Shown here piece after piece: positions 48,481 through 55,092 of a stretch of 64,000 bases of DNA (positions are counted from its first letter, which is position 1; each line of letters begins with the position of its first letter). The notes beneath the pieces were generated by a model. The model saw nothing but the letters and a program-made list of their open reading frames with translations, searched no databases and was not told where the DNA came from. The DNA is taken from sequence record MF327006; one strand, 5' to 3'. The translations under genes were made by a program, and so were the position numbers. This DNA comes from Shigella phage Sf20.

Positions 48481-49893
48481 TTAGAAAGTCATGTTATTTG
48501 CTAGCTCGTCGAGTTTTTCTCGTTTCTCGGCTTGCTGTGCGCTTTGTGGTTTAACTTGTGCATTCTCCTGATCTGCGATCTGGTTTGGAACTTCATACCA
48601 ACGCTGATTGCCTTTTTTCACACCAACGTTAAACCGTGAATAATAGTTCTTATCACCGTAACGAGACTTGATCTGCTTCATGAGTTGAACGCCCATTTTA
48701 GCAAGGTCTTCGGTCTCGATAACACCCAACATAAAATCGGCTGTAGCCGGAAGACCTGCTGATTCAGCGGTATCACTCATGTTAAGGTCTGACGCATCCC
48801 AACCCGCGCGGGTAGTCTGTGCCGCAGTCCAACCAACAACATCCCACTTAACAAAAAATCCTCGCAGTTCTTCCGCAATCGCCTTAACTAGTGTGTAACT
48901 ATTTTCAGAGTATACACGCAAGCGAGACGATGCGCAAATCCCCAGATAGTCAACAATCACAACATCAGGTTTAAACTGTTTCTTGAGTCGCAATTCATTC
49001 ATTAACGCCTCAAAGTGATTGGAGTTCGCGCCACCAGTAGGATACTGCTTGATCATCAATTTTCCAACCGGACGATCTCCGATCTTCTTATTCTTAACAC
49101 GCTTCATACGTGCGGAATATTCCGCAAAAGAAACATTACCATTATCCAATTCATCTAATGTAATGTCAAGCAAGTTTGCGTCGATACGTTTGGCTACGAC
49201 ATGCTCTGCCATCTCCATTGAGATATACAATACATCATAACCACATTCCATATAATCCGCAGCAAGAGAACACAAGCCCAATGATTTGCCAACGTTTACA
49301 CCAGCAAGCAACACATTTAGCGTTTTTCTTTCCGCACCTCCTTTCGTGATTTTATTCAACATCGGCAGCTTAAACGGGATCTTATTCGCCTTAGTCTGAT
49401 ATAGCAAGAATCGTTTTTCGAAGTCATTAAACCAGTCATGACCTACATCAGAATCAAACGTAATGGATAGTGCTTCCTGCATGATCTCAGGAATAGCGCC
49501 CTCACCAGGCAATTTCTTATTCTGTTTCTCTTTTGGTAATTGTGCGTTCGCCTGAATCTCTAGCGCCCGTGACATTGCATTATACATGGCACGGTCACGA
49601 ATAAATTTTTCGGTTTCCTTCATTAACCAATCAAGGTCTTCCGGTGTATTCTCAAGCGAATCAAGAAGAGTTTTAGCCCCTTCATATGTTGTCTGATTGC
49701 CTCTCTCCTTGTCTAAAGCAATCTGTAATGCAGTTGGCGTAGGAATATTGGAATATTCGTCTACGTGCTTTTTAATCAGTTTATAAATCAGTTTTTCTTC
49801 GTCTTCGGTGAAGTAGTCCGCTTTAAGATGAGGCCATACATTCGTAAAGAATGTGCCATTGTAAATCAACTGTGAAAAGATAGTTTTAATCAT
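48481..49893 (-). CDS. 41: replicative DNA helicase (DnaB-like)
   Basis: 470 aa; Walker A GVNVGKS; start overlaps upstream stop (ATGA). Confidence 0.9.
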   Translation of the reverse strand: MIKTIFSQLIYNGTFFTNVWPHLKADYFTEDEEKLIYKLIKKHVDEYSNIPTPTALQIALDKERGNQTTYEGAKTLLDSLENTPEDLDWLMKETEKFIRDRAMYNAMSRALEIQANAQLPKEKQNKKLPGEGAIPEIMQEALSITFDSDVGHDWFNDFEKRFLLYQTKANKIPFKLPMLNKITKGGAERKTLNVLLAGVNVGKSLGLCSLAADYMECGYDVLYISMEMAEHVVAKRIDANLLDITLDELDNGNVSFAEYSARMKRVKNKKIGDRPVGKLMIKQYPTGGANSNHFEALMNELRLKKQFKPDVVIVDYLGICASSRLRVYSENSYTLVKAIAEELRGFFVKWDVVGWTAAQTTRAGWDASDLNMSDTAESAGLPATADFMLGVIETEDLAKMGVQLMKQIKSRYGDKNYYSRFNVGVKKGNQRWYEVPNQIADQENAQVKPQSAQQAEKREKLDELANNMTF

Positions 49894-50207
49894 ACGTAGC
49901 CCCCAACTACACGCATAACAAAGGTCTTGAGTTTATACCAGAAAGTTTCTTTTTTCAACTTTTCTTCTGCTTCTTTGATCTGCGCGGTTAACGCCTTGAT
50001 GACGTGAGGATATACCACATCACGATCTGACGGCGTGGAGTAGTCGACCACAATACCTTTAGTGTCTGGATCGTATTCAACATTATGAATATAGACAATA
50101 TGATGCTCTCCCTCTTCATCAACAATTATCAGTTCCTGAATAACTGTCTTCATTGCTTCTTGAATCAAGCCGTGTGCTTCTTCTAAACTCGTTGGTTTCT
50201 TATCCAT
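49890..50207 (-). CDS. hypothetical protein (gene 40 position)
   Basis: ORF track 105 aa; hydrophobic C-terminus. Confidence 0.45.
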   Translation of the reverse strand: MDKKPTSLEEAHGLIQEAMKTVIQELIIVDEEGEHHIVYIHNVEYDPDTKGIVVDYSTPSDRDVVYPHVIKALTAQIKEAEEKLKKETFWYKLKTFVMRVVGGYV

Positions 50208-50233
50208 AATATAATCCTCTCAGTAAAAATATC

Positions 50234-50262
50234 ATTTTACTACTTTAATTATTCTATGTCAA
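50234..50262 (-). promoter_or_regulatory. sigma70-type early promoter
   Basis: Minus sense TTGACA-N17-TAAAAT; overlaps the 3' end of the HNH gene. Confidence 0.5.
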
Positions 50263-50998
50263 CAAATTTCCAATTTGGAAAGTCTGGACTCATACAACGA
50301 CGCCGAACGGTTCCGCGCTCGTTTCCTAGTACCTTAGACACTTCCGATACGGATTTATATATCACACCATCAACAGATACAGCCTTTCGGTCTTTCCTGT
50401 TTTGGTTTTTGCTCTTTTCTCTTCTGGCTTCTACGTTCTCCGAATCATTCCATTGTCTCTTTGCTGTCTCACGGGAAGATATTGCCTTTTGTTCTTTAAC
50501 AATATCTTTAACGAGTTGTTCTTGTCCTGTTATCTTCGCCCACACATTAACAGACTGAATAGCATTAGCCTCACTCATTCCCCAGCGTTTACCGGATATA
50601 TTCTTACGACGCACGCGTAGAAATTCGTTAAAGACTTCTTCGCATTGGTGCATATAATCACGAAATCCATATTTCTTAGCCCATGCCTCTTTAATTGCAT
50701 CAGACATATTTTCGGCAATACGTCTACGCACCCATGCATACTCCTTATTATTTCGACCGTGACTGGTCATGCACATCATACGTGCAGCCATAAGAAGACC
50801 AACATTCTTAGGATACATTTTAGCTAACAATAAGTGAGCGGTAAAATGTTCCTCCGGTGTCAATGGAACGAGATTTTCTCGGTCATCCGTACCACCCATA
50901 CAACGCGGTTTAACGTGATGGATCTCTATGTATCCGGTCGGCTTCTCGCGGGTTCTTGCTCGTTCAATCAATCTTTCGTAATGTGCTTTGTAGTTCAT
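50249..50998 (-). CDS. HNH homing-endonuclease-like protein
   Basis: ATG 50996-50998 with SD GGAGGA; IEIHHVKPRCMGGTDDRENLVPLTPEEHFTAH; basic C-terminus. Confidence 0.7.
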   Translation of the reverse strand: MNYKAHYERLIERARTREKPTGYIEIHHVKPRCMGGTDDRENLVPLTPEEHFTAHLLLAKMYPKNVGLLMAARMMCMTSHGRNNKEYAWVRRRIAENMSDAIKEAWAKKYGFRDYMHQCEEVFNEFLRVRRKNISGKRWGMSEANAIQSVNVWAKITGQEQLVKDIVKEQKAISSRETAKRQWNDSENVEARREKSKNQNRKDRKAVSVDGVIYKSVSEVSKVLGNERGTVRRRCMSPDFPNWKFVDIE

Positions 50999-51009
50999 GT
51001 GATCCTCCA

Positions 51010-51035
51010 TATGAAAAAGGGGCATAAAGCCCCTT
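51010..51035 (-). terminator. candidate intrinsic terminator downstream of uvsX
   Basis: Minus-sense hairpin AAGGGGC-UUUAU-GCCCCUU then UUUCAU. Confidence 0.4.
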
Positions 51036-51049
51036 AACCGCCACTGATA

Positions 51050-52120
51050 TTATGCTAACATATCTTCTACTTCTTTGTCAACAGCTTCATCACTGATAAC
51101 TTGACCTAACTGATAGTGATCATTGATCGCTTTCTGGAAGTGTTCATTGGTCAGAAGTGGTTTCCAAAAATCAACACTATCCGTTTCTTTCGCTCGGAAC
51201 TTGCGTTCTTCGGTTTCCATTTCTCCTGTTTCAGCATTCAGGATTGAACGAGAATACCAACCATTCGACGGTTTAACAATCCAACCCAACTCGATAGCCA
51301 GTTCAAGTAATCCAGAGTAAGGATCAATACCACCGCTAAAGGTTACGCTAATAGGGAACTTCGATTTTTCTTTAACGGTTCGTGATTTTTCCGCATTCAG
51401 GATAAAATCATAACCAGTAATTTCGGTTCCTTCTTTCTGCTGACGACGGCTAATAATGAACACTTCGTTTGCACTGTACATACCACCAGTACCACCAGAC
51501 ATAATCTCTTTCGGATACAGAGACATTTCAGAGTAAGTATGGTTAATAGCGATGCACGGGATATCATTCATAGTCAGATAAGGTGTCATCATACGGAACA
51601 AGCCTTTAAGTGCTTTAGCTCGCGTCATATCCTGTGCGGATTTCTCATTAATCGCGTCTTCAACTTCTTTTTTACTTGCTAAGTTACCGATTGAGTCAAT
51701 AAAGATGATCACTTTATCTTCACGGGTAATTTGCTCAAGCTGGTTCATGATCTCAAATTTAAGTTCTTCGATGTTCTTGATTGGAACGTGCACCACGCGA
51801 TCAGGATCTACACCCATAGATGACAGATATGCGGAAGTAATACCAAACTCAGAATCAAAGAACAAGCAAGCCGCATCGGGATTCTGTTTCATGTATGCAC
51901 TAACACAAGTTAATCCCATGTTTGATTTAAAGTGCTTAGATGGACCAGCAAAGAAAATCAGACCAGATTGAAAGCCTTTTTTAAGATCGCCAGAAAACGC
52001 AATATTCAGCATCGGGATCTTAGTGCGAGTATTTGTTTTTTCGTTAAAGAAGCTGGATTTAGACAGTACCGCAGTAGTTTTCAGGGTAGAGTTCTTTTTC
52101 AGTTTTTCCAGTACAGACAT
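51050..52120 (-). CDS. uvsX: UvsX recombinase (RecA-like)
   Basis: 356 aa; FFNEKTNTRTKIPMLNIAFSG; Walker A GPSKHFKS. Confidence 0.9.
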   Translation of the reverse strand: MSVLEKLKKNSTLKTTAVLSKSSFFNEKTNTRTKIPMLNIAFSGDLKKGFQSGLIFFAGPSKHFKSNMGLTCVSAYMKQNPDAACLFFDSEFGITSAYLSSMGVDPDRVVHVPIKNIEELKFEIMNQLEQITREDKVIIFIDSIGNLASKKEVEDAINEKSAQDMTRAKALKGLFRMMTPYLTMNDIPCIAINHTYSEMSLYPKEIMSGGTGGMYSANEVFIISRRQQKEGTEITGYDFILNAEKSRTVKEKSKFPISVTFSGGIDPYSGLLELAIELGWIVKPSNGWYSRSILNAETGEMETEERKFRAKETDSVDFWKPLLTNEHFQKAINDHYQLGQVISDEAVDKEVEDMLA

Positions 52121-52131
52121 TATTAATACCT

Positions 52132-52359
52132 CTATTCAGTTAATCCGTAATACTTTAATTGCTTCATTGTTATTCGATCTTTGTAGTGCTCTTGAATTAA
52201 CTTTTTCATCGCATCAACATCGATCGTCACAAATACTTCGTTGCTGTGATTTCCGTGAACTTTCTTGAAATGCTCTATGCCTTCCTCACGTTCACGTTTA
52301 ATCTTTTCAATGTCTCTCATAATATATTTCTCACATTGGCGGGTATCGTAACCCAACAC
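52132..52359 (-). CDS. hypothetical protein
   Basis: ORF track 75 aa; only ORF between uvsX and 43. Confidence 0.4.
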   Translation of the reverse strand: MLGYDTRQCEKYIMRDIEKIKREREEGIEHFKKVHGNHSNEVFVTIDVDAMKKLIQEHYKDRITMKQLKYYGLTE

Positions 52360-52381
52360 CCGCCATTATACACACTTTATC

Positions 52382-55060
52382 TTAAATGTCAAACAGGTCC
52401 GTAAGCGATGCCACCTTTTCATATTGCAGCTTTGCAGCCGTGGTAATGTTCTCCAGTGGTTTGACGAAAGTCTTATTAAACAACAAAGGCCAGTCCAACC
52501 ACTTCAACACCTCTGATTCAATTTCTGGAGGAATACGAGTACCAGACAACCAACCAAAACAGATTTCTCCAAACGGATTTCGATCTTTCAGCGGTACAAT
52601 CATAACCTTCTCGCCTTCACGAATCGGATCTAGTCCGAATTTTCGAGCATTACGATTATAACACAATACACTCTTAACCGCATACGGACAACCCTTAATC
52701 GGATACCCGTTTGAATCGCTGTATTTCTGTAGGTTGTTTGCAGATGATACCGCAGCAACATCAAGATAGTCAAGTTTTCTAAATTCTTGCTCAAAAATAC
52801 CGTAGTATTCCTGCAATGACTCTTCACCTTCCTGCAACATACGGCGAATACATTCTTTCAGTGATTTCTGACATGCTTTAGGGGTGGAGCTACGTTGCGT
52901 TTCCAAGCCCATGATTTTTAGCTTAGGTTCAGCAAAGCGCGTTCCTTCCATATCCCAAACATTAAGAGCATAACGCTTTTTACCAGTCCAGAATCCACCG
53001 ATACCCGCAGATTTCAACGGAGGACCAGCAATTGCCTCTCGGTCCATAAACATCAAGTGCTCATAATTGTTCATGTACTCGCACAACTCGCGATATCCTT
53101 TGTCGATAATCGGTTCCATTCGATGTTTACCGAAATTATCAAGGAAGTCAACAAGTTTTTCGGTATCGTCGAAACGGTCTTCCCCGCCAACCTTATCAAC
53201 AACATTGTTAACCAGCACATAAACGGAGTCAGTATCACAATAACGAACATATGCAAAATCGGTTGTTCCGCAAAGCTCGTTTAAGTATTCGTTAATCTTA
53301 CGCTCAATCCACTGAATTGCAAGCTGACCGAACAGTGTGATCGCACTAGCGTTACGGAGATCATAAAAACGGAATTTAGGATTCCCCAACGCACCATAAA
53401 GGGAGTTGATCAAAACTTTTCGAGAAAGCTGGTTTGTATTGCACAAGATCGACTCGTCTTTACATTCTTCCAGCAATTTCTCTAAGGTATCTTTGCTTAA
53501 TTCAGAAAGCATCGATTTAAACGCTTCATCAAAGTCGTGACGCACTTCAACGCTATAGCTAATGGTTCCCCCATAAACATGATTTTCATCGTGTAGAATC
53601 GCTTTACATAGTTCAGCATTGCGATCACATGCCAACATCATGTTTTTGTACTGCTTACGCTGATCGAATACCTTTTTAATCTCAATCGGTACGATACCAT
53701 GAATATCTTTTCGATACATCCATCCGTTAGGCGAGCAAGAATACTCATCACTAGGACGTGGTGCAGTTTTATTGATATACTCGTGCATCGGTGCAGCATC
53801 AAAAGATCCGGCGATTGTTTCAGGCGAAATATTAACCTGTCGAATAATAGATGGATACAGACTTGTTAAGTCAAAGCTCATCATCCAACGGTAAGCATTA
53901 GGTACTGGCTCTTTTACAAATGCGCCCGGATAAGTCTGCTTAGGCTGTATCTTGTTCTCCGGTACTACTTTACCCTCAGCTTTCAGAGATCCGAAAATAA
54001 TAGCATCCCATACTTTCATCGGGTTATAAACATGGTTAAATTTAATCTTTGCATAGAAACATAGACTATACACAAGATCGATAAATCCACGCTTTTTATC
54101 AATCGCCAGCACACGATCAACGTCGCCGATGTTATAATCGATGTAAAGTTGATGGTTATCATCACGCAATTTCTTTAACGGACCATCATAATCAACCTTA
54201 CCGATTCCTGTCTCATATTCAGCAACATAATCTAACGCATATGTTGGTTGAGTCGTAAAGCTAAATTTCTTGTACAGGTCAATATAATCAAGGCTTTCGA
54301 TCCCCATGATCGTAAATGCTTCACGCTCGTTACCAAAATCATCCTGTGAGATTCGGGATTTAATCTTACCGCACGGGCTTAGACGGTTAGCGGTTCTACT
54401 TCCGAACTTATTACTGATACGTTTAATGATATATGGAATATCGAATGTTTCTGTGTTCCAGCCAGTGAAACCAACGGGTCGGTTTTCCTCAAAGAATCGG
54501 ATGTATTCTAACAGCAATTCATCTTCTGTGTCATAGAAGTTATAAACAACGCGCTCTACAATATCAGGTCGAAGAATAGACTTGCTAGATTCCCAGATTT
54601 CACCGTTTTTTCCTTTCAAATCAAATACAAAGAAACGATCATGTACGGAATCATAATGCGTAATTGCATCGATAGGATATTTCGCTTCTTCTGGTTTAGG
54701 AAATTCTGGGGCAGTGACCTCAATATCAACCCATGCTACACGGATTTTATTTCGGTCATATCGAATCTCGCCTTTATATGTATCGGACAGATAGGAGATG
54801 ATAAAATCATCCATCCCTAGTGCCTCCTGCCCCATTTCTCCCATCTTTTTACGCCATTTGTTGGCCTCGTTCATAGATGGGAATTTTTTAGCAATGCAAG
54901 GCTTGCCGTAGATATCTTTATAATTCGTAACCATACCAGGAGCGGCATGATGAAATAAAGTTGGCGTATATTCAACGTAACGCTCTTGTTCTTGTCCAGC
55001 ATCATCAATATAACGCTCGTAGATCTTATCACCCACTCGCTCACATGACAGAAAATACAT
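52382..55060 (-). CDS. 43: DNA polymerase (family B)
   Basis: ATG 55058-55060 with SD AAGGAG (track GTG extension rejected); DIEV exo motif, SLYPSII, YCDTDS. Confidence 0.95.
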   Translation of the reverse strand: MYFLSCERVGDKIYERYIDDAGQEQERYVEYTPTLFHHAAPGMVTNYKDIYGKPCIAKKFPSMNEANKWRKKMGEMGQEALGMDDFIISYLSDTYKGEIRYDRNKIRVAWVDIEVTAPEFPKPEEAKYPIDAITHYDSVHDRFFVFDLKGKNGEIWESSKSILRPDIVERVVYNFYDTEDELLLEYIRFFEENRPVGFTGWNTETFDIPYIIKRISNKFGSRTANRLSPCGKIKSRISQDDFGNEREAFTIMGIESLDYIDLYKKFSFTTQPTYALDYVAEYETGIGKVDYDGPLKKLRDDNHQLYIDYNIGDVDRVLAIDKKRGFIDLVYSLCFYAKIKFNHVYNPMKVWDAIIFGSLKAEGKVVPENKIQPKQTYPGAFVKEPVPNAYRWMMSFDLTSLYPSIIRQVNISPETIAGSFDAAPMHEYINKTAPRPSDEYSCSPNGWMYRKDIHGIVPIEIKKVFDQRKQYKNMMLACDRNAELCKAILHDENHVYGGTISYSVEVRHDFDEAFKSMLSELSKDTLEKLLEECKDESILCNTNQLSRKVLINSLYGALGNPKFRFYDLRNASAITLFGQLAIQWIERKINEYLNELCGTTDFAYVRYCDTDSVYVLVNNVVDKVGGEDRFDDTEKLVDFLDNFGKHRMEPIIDKGYRELCEYMNNYEHLMFMDREAIAGPPLKSAGIGGFWTGKKRYALNVWDMEGTRFAEPKLKIMGLETQRSSTPKACQKSLKECIRRMLQEGEESLQEYYGIFEQEFRKLDYLDVAAVSSANNLQKYSDSNGYPIKGCPYAVKSVLCYNRNARKFGLDPIREGEKVMIVPLKDRNPFGEICFGWLSGTRIPPEIESEVLKWLDWPLLFNKTFVKPLENITTAAKLQYEKVASLTDLFDI

Positions 55061-55092
55061 AATATAAACTCCTTCACTTACGAAAGACACTC

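What the first reader, a model, noticed from the sequence alone, without database searches (positions are those of the whole stretch)
50249..51035. Free-standing HNH homing-endonuclease-like gene inserted between gene 41/40 and uvsX
A 250-aa HNH protein (HHVKP...DDRENLVPLTPEEHFTAH) with a basic C-terminus sits between a candidate terminator (51010-51035) and its own SD. T4 has no gene at this position. It is likely a mobile element targeting a sequence within or near uvsX in naive relatives.
Basis: partly seen in the sequence, partly recalled or inferred. Interest (0 to 1): 0.4.

Follow-up and report, generated by a model that had tools for sequence, protein, structure and literature searches.

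The report
Mob-type HNH homing endonuclease beside uvsX
A selfish homing-endonuclease gene sits between the recombinase gene uvsX and head gene 40 of an RB49-like coliphage, and it travels with a foreign 3' third of uvsX; this is a clear but ordinary example of a known kind of mobile element.

Summary
A 249-aa ORF (window 50249-50998, minus strand) encodes a T4 Mob-type HNH nuclease domain joined to an I-TevI-type helix-turn-helix DNA-binding domain. It lies in a 787-bp insert between the uvsX terminator and the gene 40 ribosome-binding site.

The window is a Krischvirus (RB49-like). Only 4 of 58 matching phage records carry the insert; the other 54 have a clean 55-bp empty site.

All carriers also share a strongly diverged 3' ~550 nt of uvsX (13-33% different from non-carriers, against 1-5% elsewhere). 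Nothing comparable occurs on the gene 40/41 side. Outside that stretch, carriers are not each other's closest relatives.

The gene is under purifying selection (dN/dS 0.05-0.13). Homologs at 57-63% identity occupy the same site in other metagenomic T4-like contigs.

This is the population signature of intronless homing with co-conversion, and the target is most likely inside uvsX. The best candidate is the loop-2 coding stretch (window ~51497-51532): it is the part of uvsX most conserved between RB49 and T4, and it is altered in every carrier. No cleavage was shown.

This is a new member of a known kind, of modest interest.

The parts
50249..50998 (-). Homing endonuclease gene, 249 aa plus stop. 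It has an N-terminal HNH nuclease domain (aa ~1-62, window ~50813-50998), a helical linker, and a C-terminal I-TevI-type helix-turn-helix domain (aa 205-249, window ~50252-50386).
   Evidence: ORF. Pfam I-TevI_DNA-bd E 8e-8, above cut-off; HNH E 8e-4, just below cut-off. phrog_655 E 2e-50. 54% identity to T4 MobE over aa 1-76. H27 H28 N42 H51 H55 invariant in 22 homologs. AF2 pLDDT 87.9. Foldseek 1i3j prob 1.0. dN/dS 0.05-0.13.
51003..51008 (-). Shine-Dalgarno GGAGGA of the endonuclease gene, 4 nt before the ATG at 50998.
   Evidence: Sequence. Conserved as GGAGAA in L017.
50222..51008 (-). The 787-bp inserted cassette (SD + ORF + 3' promoter). It is absent from RB49-type phages, which have CTA at this point. 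Boundaries are good to about 3 nt.
   Evidence: Junction alignment of the window, JEP8, KFS-EC, pEJ01 and RB49. 54 of 58 records lack exactly this stretch.
50234..50262 (-). Sigma-70-like promoter TTGACA-17 nt-TAAAAT. It overlaps the last codons and stop of the endonuclease gene and points into genes 40/41.
   Evidence: 11/12 consensus match. The same hexamers and 17-nt spacing occur in L017, although the spacer sequence and stop position differ. Function is inferred.
51014..51035 (-). Intrinsic-terminator-like hairpin plus T-run after uvsX. It is pre-existing host-phage sequence and forms the left border of the insertion.
   Evidence: Pattern scan. The equivalent hairpin, with a different loop, is in HEG-less RB49. 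The fold z-score is not significant.
51050..52120 (-). uvsX (RecA-like recombinase, 356 aa). Inferred target gene.
   Evidence: Pfam T4_UVSX_C E 3e-33. Annotated as uvsX in relatives.
51009..51589 (-). HEG-linked diverged stretch: the intergenic region plus uvsX nt ~532-1071. It is 13-33% different from all HEG-less Krischviruses and is read as a co-conversion tract.
   Evidence: Changes are mostly synonymous, with dS ~1.
51497..51532 (-). Candidate target/immunity site B: uvsX nt 589-624, coding for UvsX loop 2. HEG-less phages read YETQEMFSKTVM; the window reads YSEMSLYPKEIM.
   Evidence: This is the densest cluster of sites where every HEG+ haplotype, including L017 and L018, differs from all 8 HEG- phages. 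In the window and JEP8 it is an isolated diverged island. It coincides with the most conserved 36 nt of uvsX between RB49 and T4, 92% against 68% gene-wide.
51133..51149 (-). Candidate target/immunity site A: uvsX nt 972-988 (NDKFNEA to NEHFQKA). It has 8 fixed substitutions in 17 nt, shared by all phages whose HEG is >=96% identical.
   Evidence: L017, whose HEG is 57% identical, is close to the HEG-less sequence here, which weakens this candidate.
49890..50207 (-). Gene 40 (head vertex assembly chaperone). It is the right-hand neighbour and shows no HEG-linked divergence.
   Evidence: Pfam Phage_head_chap E 6e-25. No fixed differences in 48481-50248.

Best explanation
This is a free-standing homing endonuclease gene of the T4 Mob (HNH) type, carried as a 787-bp cassette in the uvsX-gene 40 intergenic spacer of a Krischvirus.

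Shown: the ORF is intact. It has the HNH catalytic residues and an I-TevI-type helix-turn-helix domain, and it is under purifying selection. It is present in a small, phylogenetically scattered minority of otherwise ~98% identical phages. It is always linked to a foreign-looking 3' ~550 nt of uvsX. Homologs at 57-63% identity sit at the same site in other T4-like contigs.

Inferred mechanism: during co-infection the enzyme binds through its C-terminal domain and nicks or cuts the uvsX gene of a phage that lacks the cassette. T4 MobE, the closest studied relative, makes a strand-specific nick. The break is resected and repaired by the phage recombination machinery using the carrier genome as template. 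This copies the resistant uvsX 3' segment together with the cassette, a process called intronless homing with co-conversion. Carriers are immune because their own uvsX sequence differs at the site.

The most likely site is the loop-2 coding stretch (window ~51497-51532, my estimate ~0.45). A second candidate is 51133-51149 (~0.2). A target somewhere in the 3' half of uvsX is ~0.7.

The cassette brings its own ribosome-binding site. It probably depends on read-through from uvsX for transcription. Its 3' end carries a sigma-70-like promoter that would restore expression of genes 40/41.
For: Domains and family.

Presence/absence at a precise site: the insert is in 4 of 58 records, and the empty site is ...TTTTTCATAT|CTA|GAGAGG....

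One-sided linkage: 53 of 53 fixed differences lie on the uvsX side. Divergence is 13-33% across 50981-51580, against 1-5% elsewhere and 0-1.5% among non-carriers.

Carriers are not monophyletic in the flanks: the window is nearest RB49 and JEP8 is nearest JSE.

Three Krischvirus haplotypes (window/JEP8, KFS-EC/pEJ01, L017) all switch from RB49-like to diverged at uvsX nt ~520-590.

The exact window UvsX protein occurs on 17 metagenome contigs. All 9 places shown have the HEG downstream as far as the contig reaches.

Homologs at 63%, 57% and ~61% identity occupy the same site.

Purifying selection: dN/dS 0.05-0.13.

The altered loop-2 stretch is the most conserved part of uvsX between RB49 and T4.

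Precedents: MobE nicks the neighbouring nrdB, and mobE+ phages carry protective polymorphisms at the site (PMC2790892). SegA cuts uvsX in T4 (PMC2988022).
Against: No nuclease activity or biased inheritance was tested.

The HNH Pfam hit is just under the curated cut-off (20.0 against 21.4 bits).

The HEG is far younger than its linked uvsX tracts. dS is ~0.16 between the window and KFS-EC HEGs, against ~1.2 for their uvsX tracts. A single donor with simple co-conversion therefore cannot explain everything. Ordinary recombination among several old uvsX 3' alleles must also be involved.

No donor lineage with a closer uvsX 3' allele exists in the phage collection.

The shared 5' boundary of the tract could reflect one ancestral event rather than the position of the break.

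The window's tract is patchy: uvsX nt 664-765 is RB49-like.
Confidence: 0.8

Rival explanations
1. The endonuclease is mobile, but its target is the insertion point itself, the uvsX-40 spacer, which the cassette splits. The diverged uvsX tract is then an unrelated piece of recombinational mosaicism that happens to be linked.
For: Many homing endonucleases cut at or next to their insertion site. The empty site is a short, well conserved spacer. The HEG is much younger than the uvsX tracts, so the cassette can move without dragging the whole tract.
Against: Linkage is strictly one-sided: 53 of 53 fixed sites are on the uvsX side. Several haplotypes share the same outer boundary and are all altered at the loop-2 stretch. 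No HEG-less phage has any of these uvsX alleles.
Confidence: 0.12
2. The gene is an old resident lost by deletion from most Krischviruses, or a decaying relic that no longer cuts and simply hitch-hikes with a variant uvsX allele.
For: Loss of homing endonuclease genes is common. One metagenome copy is frame-shifted (L018) and one stops at codon 99 (L109).
Against: Non-carriers have a clean 55-bp spacer with no remnant. Carriers are scattered among non-carriers in flanking-gene distances. The ORF is intact in at least 10 independent genomes or contigs, with dN/dS 0.05-0.13 and all catalytic residues kept.
Confidence: 0.06
3. The protein is kept mainly because it benefits the phage, for example as a weapon that damages co-infecting relatives (marker exclusion) or as the carrier of the gene 40/41 promoter. 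Under this reading it is not purely selfish DNA.
For: The embedded sigma-70-like promoter is conserved in a copy only 57% identical. Purifying selection is strong. HEG-mediated exclusion of T2 by T4 is established (PMC2988022).
Against: 54 of 58 relatives do without it. This reading does not compete with homing mechanistically; it only adds a benefit.
Confidence: 0.25

Closest known systems
T4 MobE (free-standing HNH homing endonuclease between nrdA and nrdB)
   Same: The N-terminal nuclease domain is 54% identical over 76 aa, including MNY..Y..LI.RA and HH.(I/V)PRCMGG...NLV.LT..EH..AH. Both are free-standing, in the same orientation as their neighbours, downstream of a conserved gene, and probably dependent on upstream transcription. 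MobE acts on a neighbouring conserved gene a few hundred nt away, and mobE+ phages carry protective polymorphisms there (PMC2790892).
   Different: The genomic site differs (uvsX|40, not nrdA|nrdB), as does the presumed target (uvsX, not nrdB). This protein is 249 aa with an I-TevI-type HTH C-terminal domain; MobE is 141 aa with no such domain. Activity is untested here.
T4 SegA (GIY-YIG free-standing endonuclease next to uvsX)
   Same: It is a free-standing homing endonuclease adjacent to uvsX whose cleavage site is in uvsX (PMC2988022; position).
   Different: The nuclease family is unrelated (GIY-YIG against HNH). SegA lies upstream of uvsX, between uvsX and beta-gt, not downstream. There is no sequence similarity.
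Mob-like HNH genes next to uvsW in Tequatroviruses (labelled mobD or 'mobile endonuclease E' in some records)
   Same: These are the nearest homologs outside Krischvirus in the phage collection: ~35% identity over aa 1-225, with the same family profile phrog_655.
   Different: The locus is different (uvsW). Identity is low and none is characterised.
I-TevI DNA-binding domain (PDB 1I3J) and I-HmuI-style modular HNH enzymes
   Same: The C-terminal 45 aa match Pfam PF20987 above its cut-off and superpose on 1i3j at 0.9 A over 43 residues. The overall plan is modular: nuclease, linker, DNA-binding module.
   Different: I-TevI has a GIY-YIG nuclease and is intron-encoded. I-HmuI did not appear among the structure or sequence hits.

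Membership tests
HNH (beta-beta-alpha-metal) nucleases, Pfam PF01844 | Profile match above the curated cut-off | tested here: not met
   E 7.8e-4, 20.0 bits against a cut-off of 21.4. It falls just short. The L017 homolog scores 22.3 bits, above the cut-off.
HNH (beta-beta-alpha-metal) nucleases, Pfam PF01844 | Catalytic His, Asn and metal-binding His on a beta-beta-alpha fold | tested here: met
   H27, H28, N42, H51 and H55 are invariant in 22 homologs. The model has strands 25-28 and 43-46 followed by helix 48-61, with pLDDT ~95. Local Foldseek matches to HNH domains of 8w1p_G (prob 0.98) and McrA 6ghc. phmmer hit to McrA HNH.
T4 Mob-type free-standing HNH homing endonucleases (phrog_655) | Sequence membership | tested here: met
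   phrog_655 E 2e-50. MobE 54% over 76 aa, E 1e-27. MobC 39% over 114 aa.
T4 Mob-type free-standing HNH homing endonucleases (phrog_655) | Free-standing in an intergenic spacer between conserved genes, co-oriented with them | tested here: met
   The insert lies between the uvsX terminator and the gene 40 SD, with all genes on the minus strand.
Homing endonuclease gene (functional definition) | Sporadic presence/absence at one fixed site among close relatives | tested here: met
   Present in 4 of 58 records, with an identical junction. Carriers are not monophyletic in the flanks. Divergent homologs sit at the same site.
Homing endonuclease gene (functional definition) | Co-conversion of flanking markers | tested here: met
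   A one-sided, HEG-linked diverged tract covers ~580 nt of uvsX and the spacer. This is population-level evidence, not a cross.
Homing endonuclease gene (functional definition) | Site-specific nicking or cleavage of the HEG-less allele, and immunity of the HEG+ allele | not testable with these tools
   Only candidate sites could be named.
Homing endonuclease gene (functional definition) | Super-Mendelian inheritance in mixed infection | not testable with these tools
   Needs phage crosses.
I-TevI-type DNA-binding domain, Pfam PF20987 | Profile match above cut-off and helix-turn-helix fold | tested here: met
   32.5 bits against a cut-off of 27, aa 205-254 of the 258-aa frame. Foldseek 1i3j_A prob 1.00, rmsd 0.9 A over 43 columns.
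Seg (GIY-YIG) endonucleases, including uvsX-cutting SegA | GIY-YIG nuclease domain | tested here: not met
   No GIY-YIG family appears among the Pfam, PHROG or NCBIfam hits.

The most novel reading that the evidence does not exclude
The enzyme's recognition/nick site is the loop-2 coding stretch of uvsX. Each homing event would then replace the DNA-binding loop 2 and C-terminal third of the recombinase with a different natural class of sequence: YSEMSLYPKEIM in place of YETQEMFSKTVM. The replacement class occurs in an L018-like lineage and resembles the loop-2 class common in environmental T4-like phages. The element would be rewriting the very recombinase that carries out its own homing. It would also be keeping several ancient uvsX 3' alleles (dS ~1) segregating inside a phage genus that is otherwise ~98% identical, possibly with functional consequences for recombination.
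Probability: 0.3. Interest if true: 0.55.

Novelty: new member of a known kind. Interest (0 to 1): 0.3.

Why it matters
This gives a natural, sequence-level picture of intronless homing outside the T-even model phages. It shows a precise empty site, a one-sided co-conversion tract, several diverged endonuclease lineages holding the same site, and a short list of candidate target sites that can be tested directly. It also shows uvsX taken as a target by a second, unrelated nuclease family; T4 uses the GIY-YIG enzyme SegA on the other side of the gene. For people using Krischviruses in phage cocktails, such elements predict biased marker inheritance and local exclusion when related phages co-infect. 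It does not change any concept.

Tried and rejected
- IMG/VR scan with the HEG protein found no relatives.
- IMG/VR scan with the UvsX C-terminal half returned only distant loci (50-58% identity). None carries this HEG. They were useful only for showing that loop 2 has two natural sequence classes.
- A search for a donor lineage in the phage collection found nothing closer than 84% to the window's uvsX 3' tract, except JEP8.
- PDB sequence search gave only weak HNH hits (E >= 0.036), with no I-HmuI or I-TevIII.
- NCBIfam gave only a sub-threshold IscB HNH hit.
- There is no T4 late-promoter box TATAAATA anywhere near the gene.
- A small hairpin that would bury the SD and start codon folds no better than shuffled sequence (z = -0.54), so I make no claim of translational control.
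- The window holds no second copy of this family.
- I considered the 258-aa reading from ATG 51025 and rejected it. That ATG lies in the terminator loop and has no SD.

Full report
**What is there**

The minus strand of window 50249-51025 is open for 258 codons. The first ATG (51025) lies in the loop of a terminator-like hairpin: AAGGGGC-TTTAT-GCCCCTT at 51035-51017, followed by a T-run. The usable start is ATG 50998, four bases after GGAGGA at 51008-51003. This gives 249 aa, the start also annotated in phages JEP8 and KFS-EC.

The neighbours, all on the minus strand, are as follows:
- DNA polymerase, 52382-55090
- a small ORF
- uvsX, 51050-52120
- this gene
- gene 40, head vertex chaperone, 49890-50207
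- gene 41, helicase, 48481-49893

**What the protein is**

- Pfam finds an I-TevI-type DNA-binding domain at the C-terminus (E 8e-8, above the cut-off).
- Pfam also finds an HNH nuclease motif at aa 32-55 of the long frame (E 8e-4, 20.0 bits), just under the 21.4-bit cut-off.
- PHROGs places the protein in phrog_655, 'homing endonuclease', at E 2e-50.
- The first 76 residues are 54% identical to T4 MobE; identity to MobC is 39%.
- In an alignment of 22 homologs, H27, H28, N42, H51 and H55 are invariant.
- An AlphaFold model (mean pLDDT 87.9) shows two strands and a helix at the motif, a helical linker, and a small C-terminal strand/helix-turn-helix unit.
- Foldseek matches the C-terminal unit to the I-TevI DNA-binding domain 1i3j (prob 1.0, 0.9 A over 43 residues). 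It matches the motif to HNH domains of type I-F Cascade-HNH and McrA.
- The protein is basic throughout (pI 9.8).

**Where the window comes from and who has the gene**

The 2.7 kb around the gene matches 58 phage records, all Krischvirus (RB49-like coliphages). The best match is JEP8 at 97.1%. Only four records carry the gene: JEP8, pEJ01 and KFS-EC, the last present twice. The other 54 match in two pieces and lack 787 bp.

In transcription orientation, RB49 reads ...GCCCCTTTTTCATAT-CTA-GAGAGGATTATATTATG(gene 40). The window reads ...GCCCCTTTTTCATAT-GGAGGATCACATG...(gene)...GATATTTTTACT-GAGAGGATTATATTATG. The cassette is therefore window 50222-51008. It is inserted between the uvsX terminator and the gene 40 ribosome-binding site.

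In T4, uvsX and 40 overlap, so there is nothing between them. T4 does carry segA, a GIY-YIG endonuclease that cuts uvsX, on the other side of uvsX.

**Signs of mobility**

I aligned gene 41 through the end of gene 43 for the window, three carriers and eight non-carriers.

- There are 53 sites fixed between carriers and non-carriers. Every one lies on the uvsX side (window 51007-52350). None lies in genes 40/41.
- Divergence between the two groups is 13-33% per 100 nt across 50981-51580. It is 1-5% elsewhere. Non-carriers differ from each other by only 0-1.5% in that stretch.
- In the flanks, carriers are not each other's nearest relatives. The window is closest to RB49 (1.5%) and JEP8 to JSE (0.8%).
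- The differences in the tract are mostly synonymous: 72 codons but only 23 residues differ between the window and RB49, with dS ~1. This is old, selected divergence that was imported, not damage.
- The HEG itself shows dN/dS of 0.05-0.13 among six copies, so it is maintained as a working protein.

**Wider sampling**

- The exact UvsX protein of the window occurs on 17 metagenome contigs, including human gut samples. In all nine places shown, the HEG follows it as far as the contig reaches. Seven copies are full length at 96-99% identity, and one stops at codon 99.
- More distant homologs sit at the same site:
  - P0003 (57% identity) in a Krischvirus-like contig, L017;
  - P0002 (63%) directly upstream of gene 40, L111;
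  - a frame-shifted copy (~61%) in a more distant 153-kb T4-like contig, L018.
- IMG/VR held no relatives of the HEG.
- Eighty distant uvsX loci from IMG/VR had no such gene beside uvsX.

**Where the target probably is**

Three Krischvirus haplotypes (window/JEP8, KFS-EC/pEJ01, L017) are all RB49-like through uvsX nt ~520-560 and then diverge. In the window and JEP8, uvsX nt 664-765 is again 96-98% RB49-like. That leaves nt ~585-663 as an isolated foreign island.

Twenty-nine sites differ from all eight non-carriers in every carrier haplotype, L017 included. Eleven of them fall within nt 589-624, window 51497-51532. That stretch encodes UvsX loop 2:
- non-carriers and T4: NHTYETQEMFSKTVM
- the window and L018: NHTYSEMSLYPKEIM
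- KFS-EC: NHVYSSMDLYPKDIM
- L017: NHTYLTQELYSKTVM

It is also the most conserved 36 nt of uvsX between RB49 and T4, at 92% against 68% for the whole gene. Homing endonucleases tend to choose that kind of sequence.

A second candidate is nt 972-988 (window 51133-51149). It has eight fixed changes in 17 nt, shared by all phages with a >=96% identical HEG. L017 is nearly RB49-like there.

By analogy, MobE nicks nrdB in mobE-less phages, and mobE+ phages carry polymorphisms at that site (PMC2790892).

**A caveat on history**

The HEGs of the window and KFS-EC differ by dS ~0.16, but their linked uvsX tracts differ by dS ~1.2. The cassette has therefore recently moved, or recombined, between backgrounds that carry different old uvsX 3' alleles. 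One donor plus simple co-conversion is too simple a story. No sequenced phage supplies a closer donor allele. The shared 5' boundary may descend from a single old event.

**Expression**

- I found no sigma-70-like promoter in the spacer directly upstream of the gene, and no T4 late box nearby. Read-through from uvsX is the likely source of transcripts, as described for mobE (PMC2790892).
- A TTGACA-18-TAGCAT match in the last codons of uvsX (51081-51052) lies upstream of the terminator and is also present in RB49. Its role is unknown.
- The last codons of the HEG and the 3' spacer form TTGACA-17 nt-TAAAAT (50262-50234; 11/12), pointing into genes 40/41.
- The same hexamers and spacing are kept in L017, although the spacer sequence and stop codon position differ.
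- Promoters for downstream genes embedded in seg and mob genes are described for T4 (PMC2988022).
- Promoter function here is inferred, not shown.

**Verdict**

This is an uncharacterised member of the Mob-type HNH free-standing homing endonucleases, at a site not used in T4. It is already labelled 'homing endonuclease' by automatic annotation in RefSeq. I found no paper describing it. It comes with an unusually clean natural co-conversion signature. It is a new member of a known kind, and interest is modest.

Noticed in passing
window 52382-55090 (gene 43); relatives L006 8883-12675, L010 8096-11238, L015 8096-11888, L017 674-3617, L103 1-2739, L107, L108: DNA polymerase gene 43 is intact in the window (902 aa). 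In JEP8, JSE, JK32 and several metagenome contigs it is split by an insert. Some inserts carry a 274-aa NUMOD3-type ORF and one carries a 184-aa HNH_3 ORF. Petrov et al. (PMC2993671) describe the JSE case as a putative group I intron with a truncated HEG. This is a second mobile-element polymorphism about 2 kb from this one.
   Followed up: partly
window 51822-51823 (uvsX nt 298-299, residue 100): An isolated two-base change (Glu100 to Ser; Thr in L018) is shared by every HEG-carrying haplotype. It lies about 230 nt beyond the end of the diverged tract, in otherwise RB49-identical sequence. It could be a leftover of a longer conversion tract or a residue co-adapted with the alternative loop 2.
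   Followed up: no
window 51009-51018 and 50222-50232: The left flank (TTTTTCATAT) and the last bases of the insert (ATATTTTTACT) resemble each other. This could be a trace of the microhomology used in the original insertion, or chance.
   Followed up: no
window 50994-51015: UUCAU...AUGAA can pair and enclose the SD and start codon of the HEG. L017 keeps the pairing through a G-U. The fold is no better than shuffled sequence (z = -0.54), so it may mean nothing.
   Followed up: partly
window 52365-52392 (minus strand): A perfect 12/12 sigma-70 consensus promoter (TTGACA-16-TATAAT) overlaps the 3' end of gene 43 and points into the small ORF and uvsX. It matches the position of the 'hypothetical early promoter' annotated in RB49 and GEC-3S.
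   Followed up: partly
L010 952-1872 (JSE) and L007 1734-2326 (KFS-EC): JSE has an opposite-strand homing endonuclease gene between modB and gene 56. KFS-EC has ~590 bp of unannotated extra DNA between its dUTPase gene and the primase gene. These are more local insertion polymorphisms among Krischviruses. I did not compare the window at these points.
   Followed up: no
L018 5001-6596: In the distant T4-like contig, the HEG homolog at the uvsX|40 site is frame-shifted (aa 1-160 and 158-247 in different frames). It is followed by an extra 243-aa ORF with no Pfam match, upstream of gene 40.
   Followed up: partly
window 52132-52359: The small ORF between gene 43 and uvsX can be read as 75 aa from a GTG. 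Some relatives annotate it as 62 aa and others as 75 aa. It has no family match.
   Followed up: no
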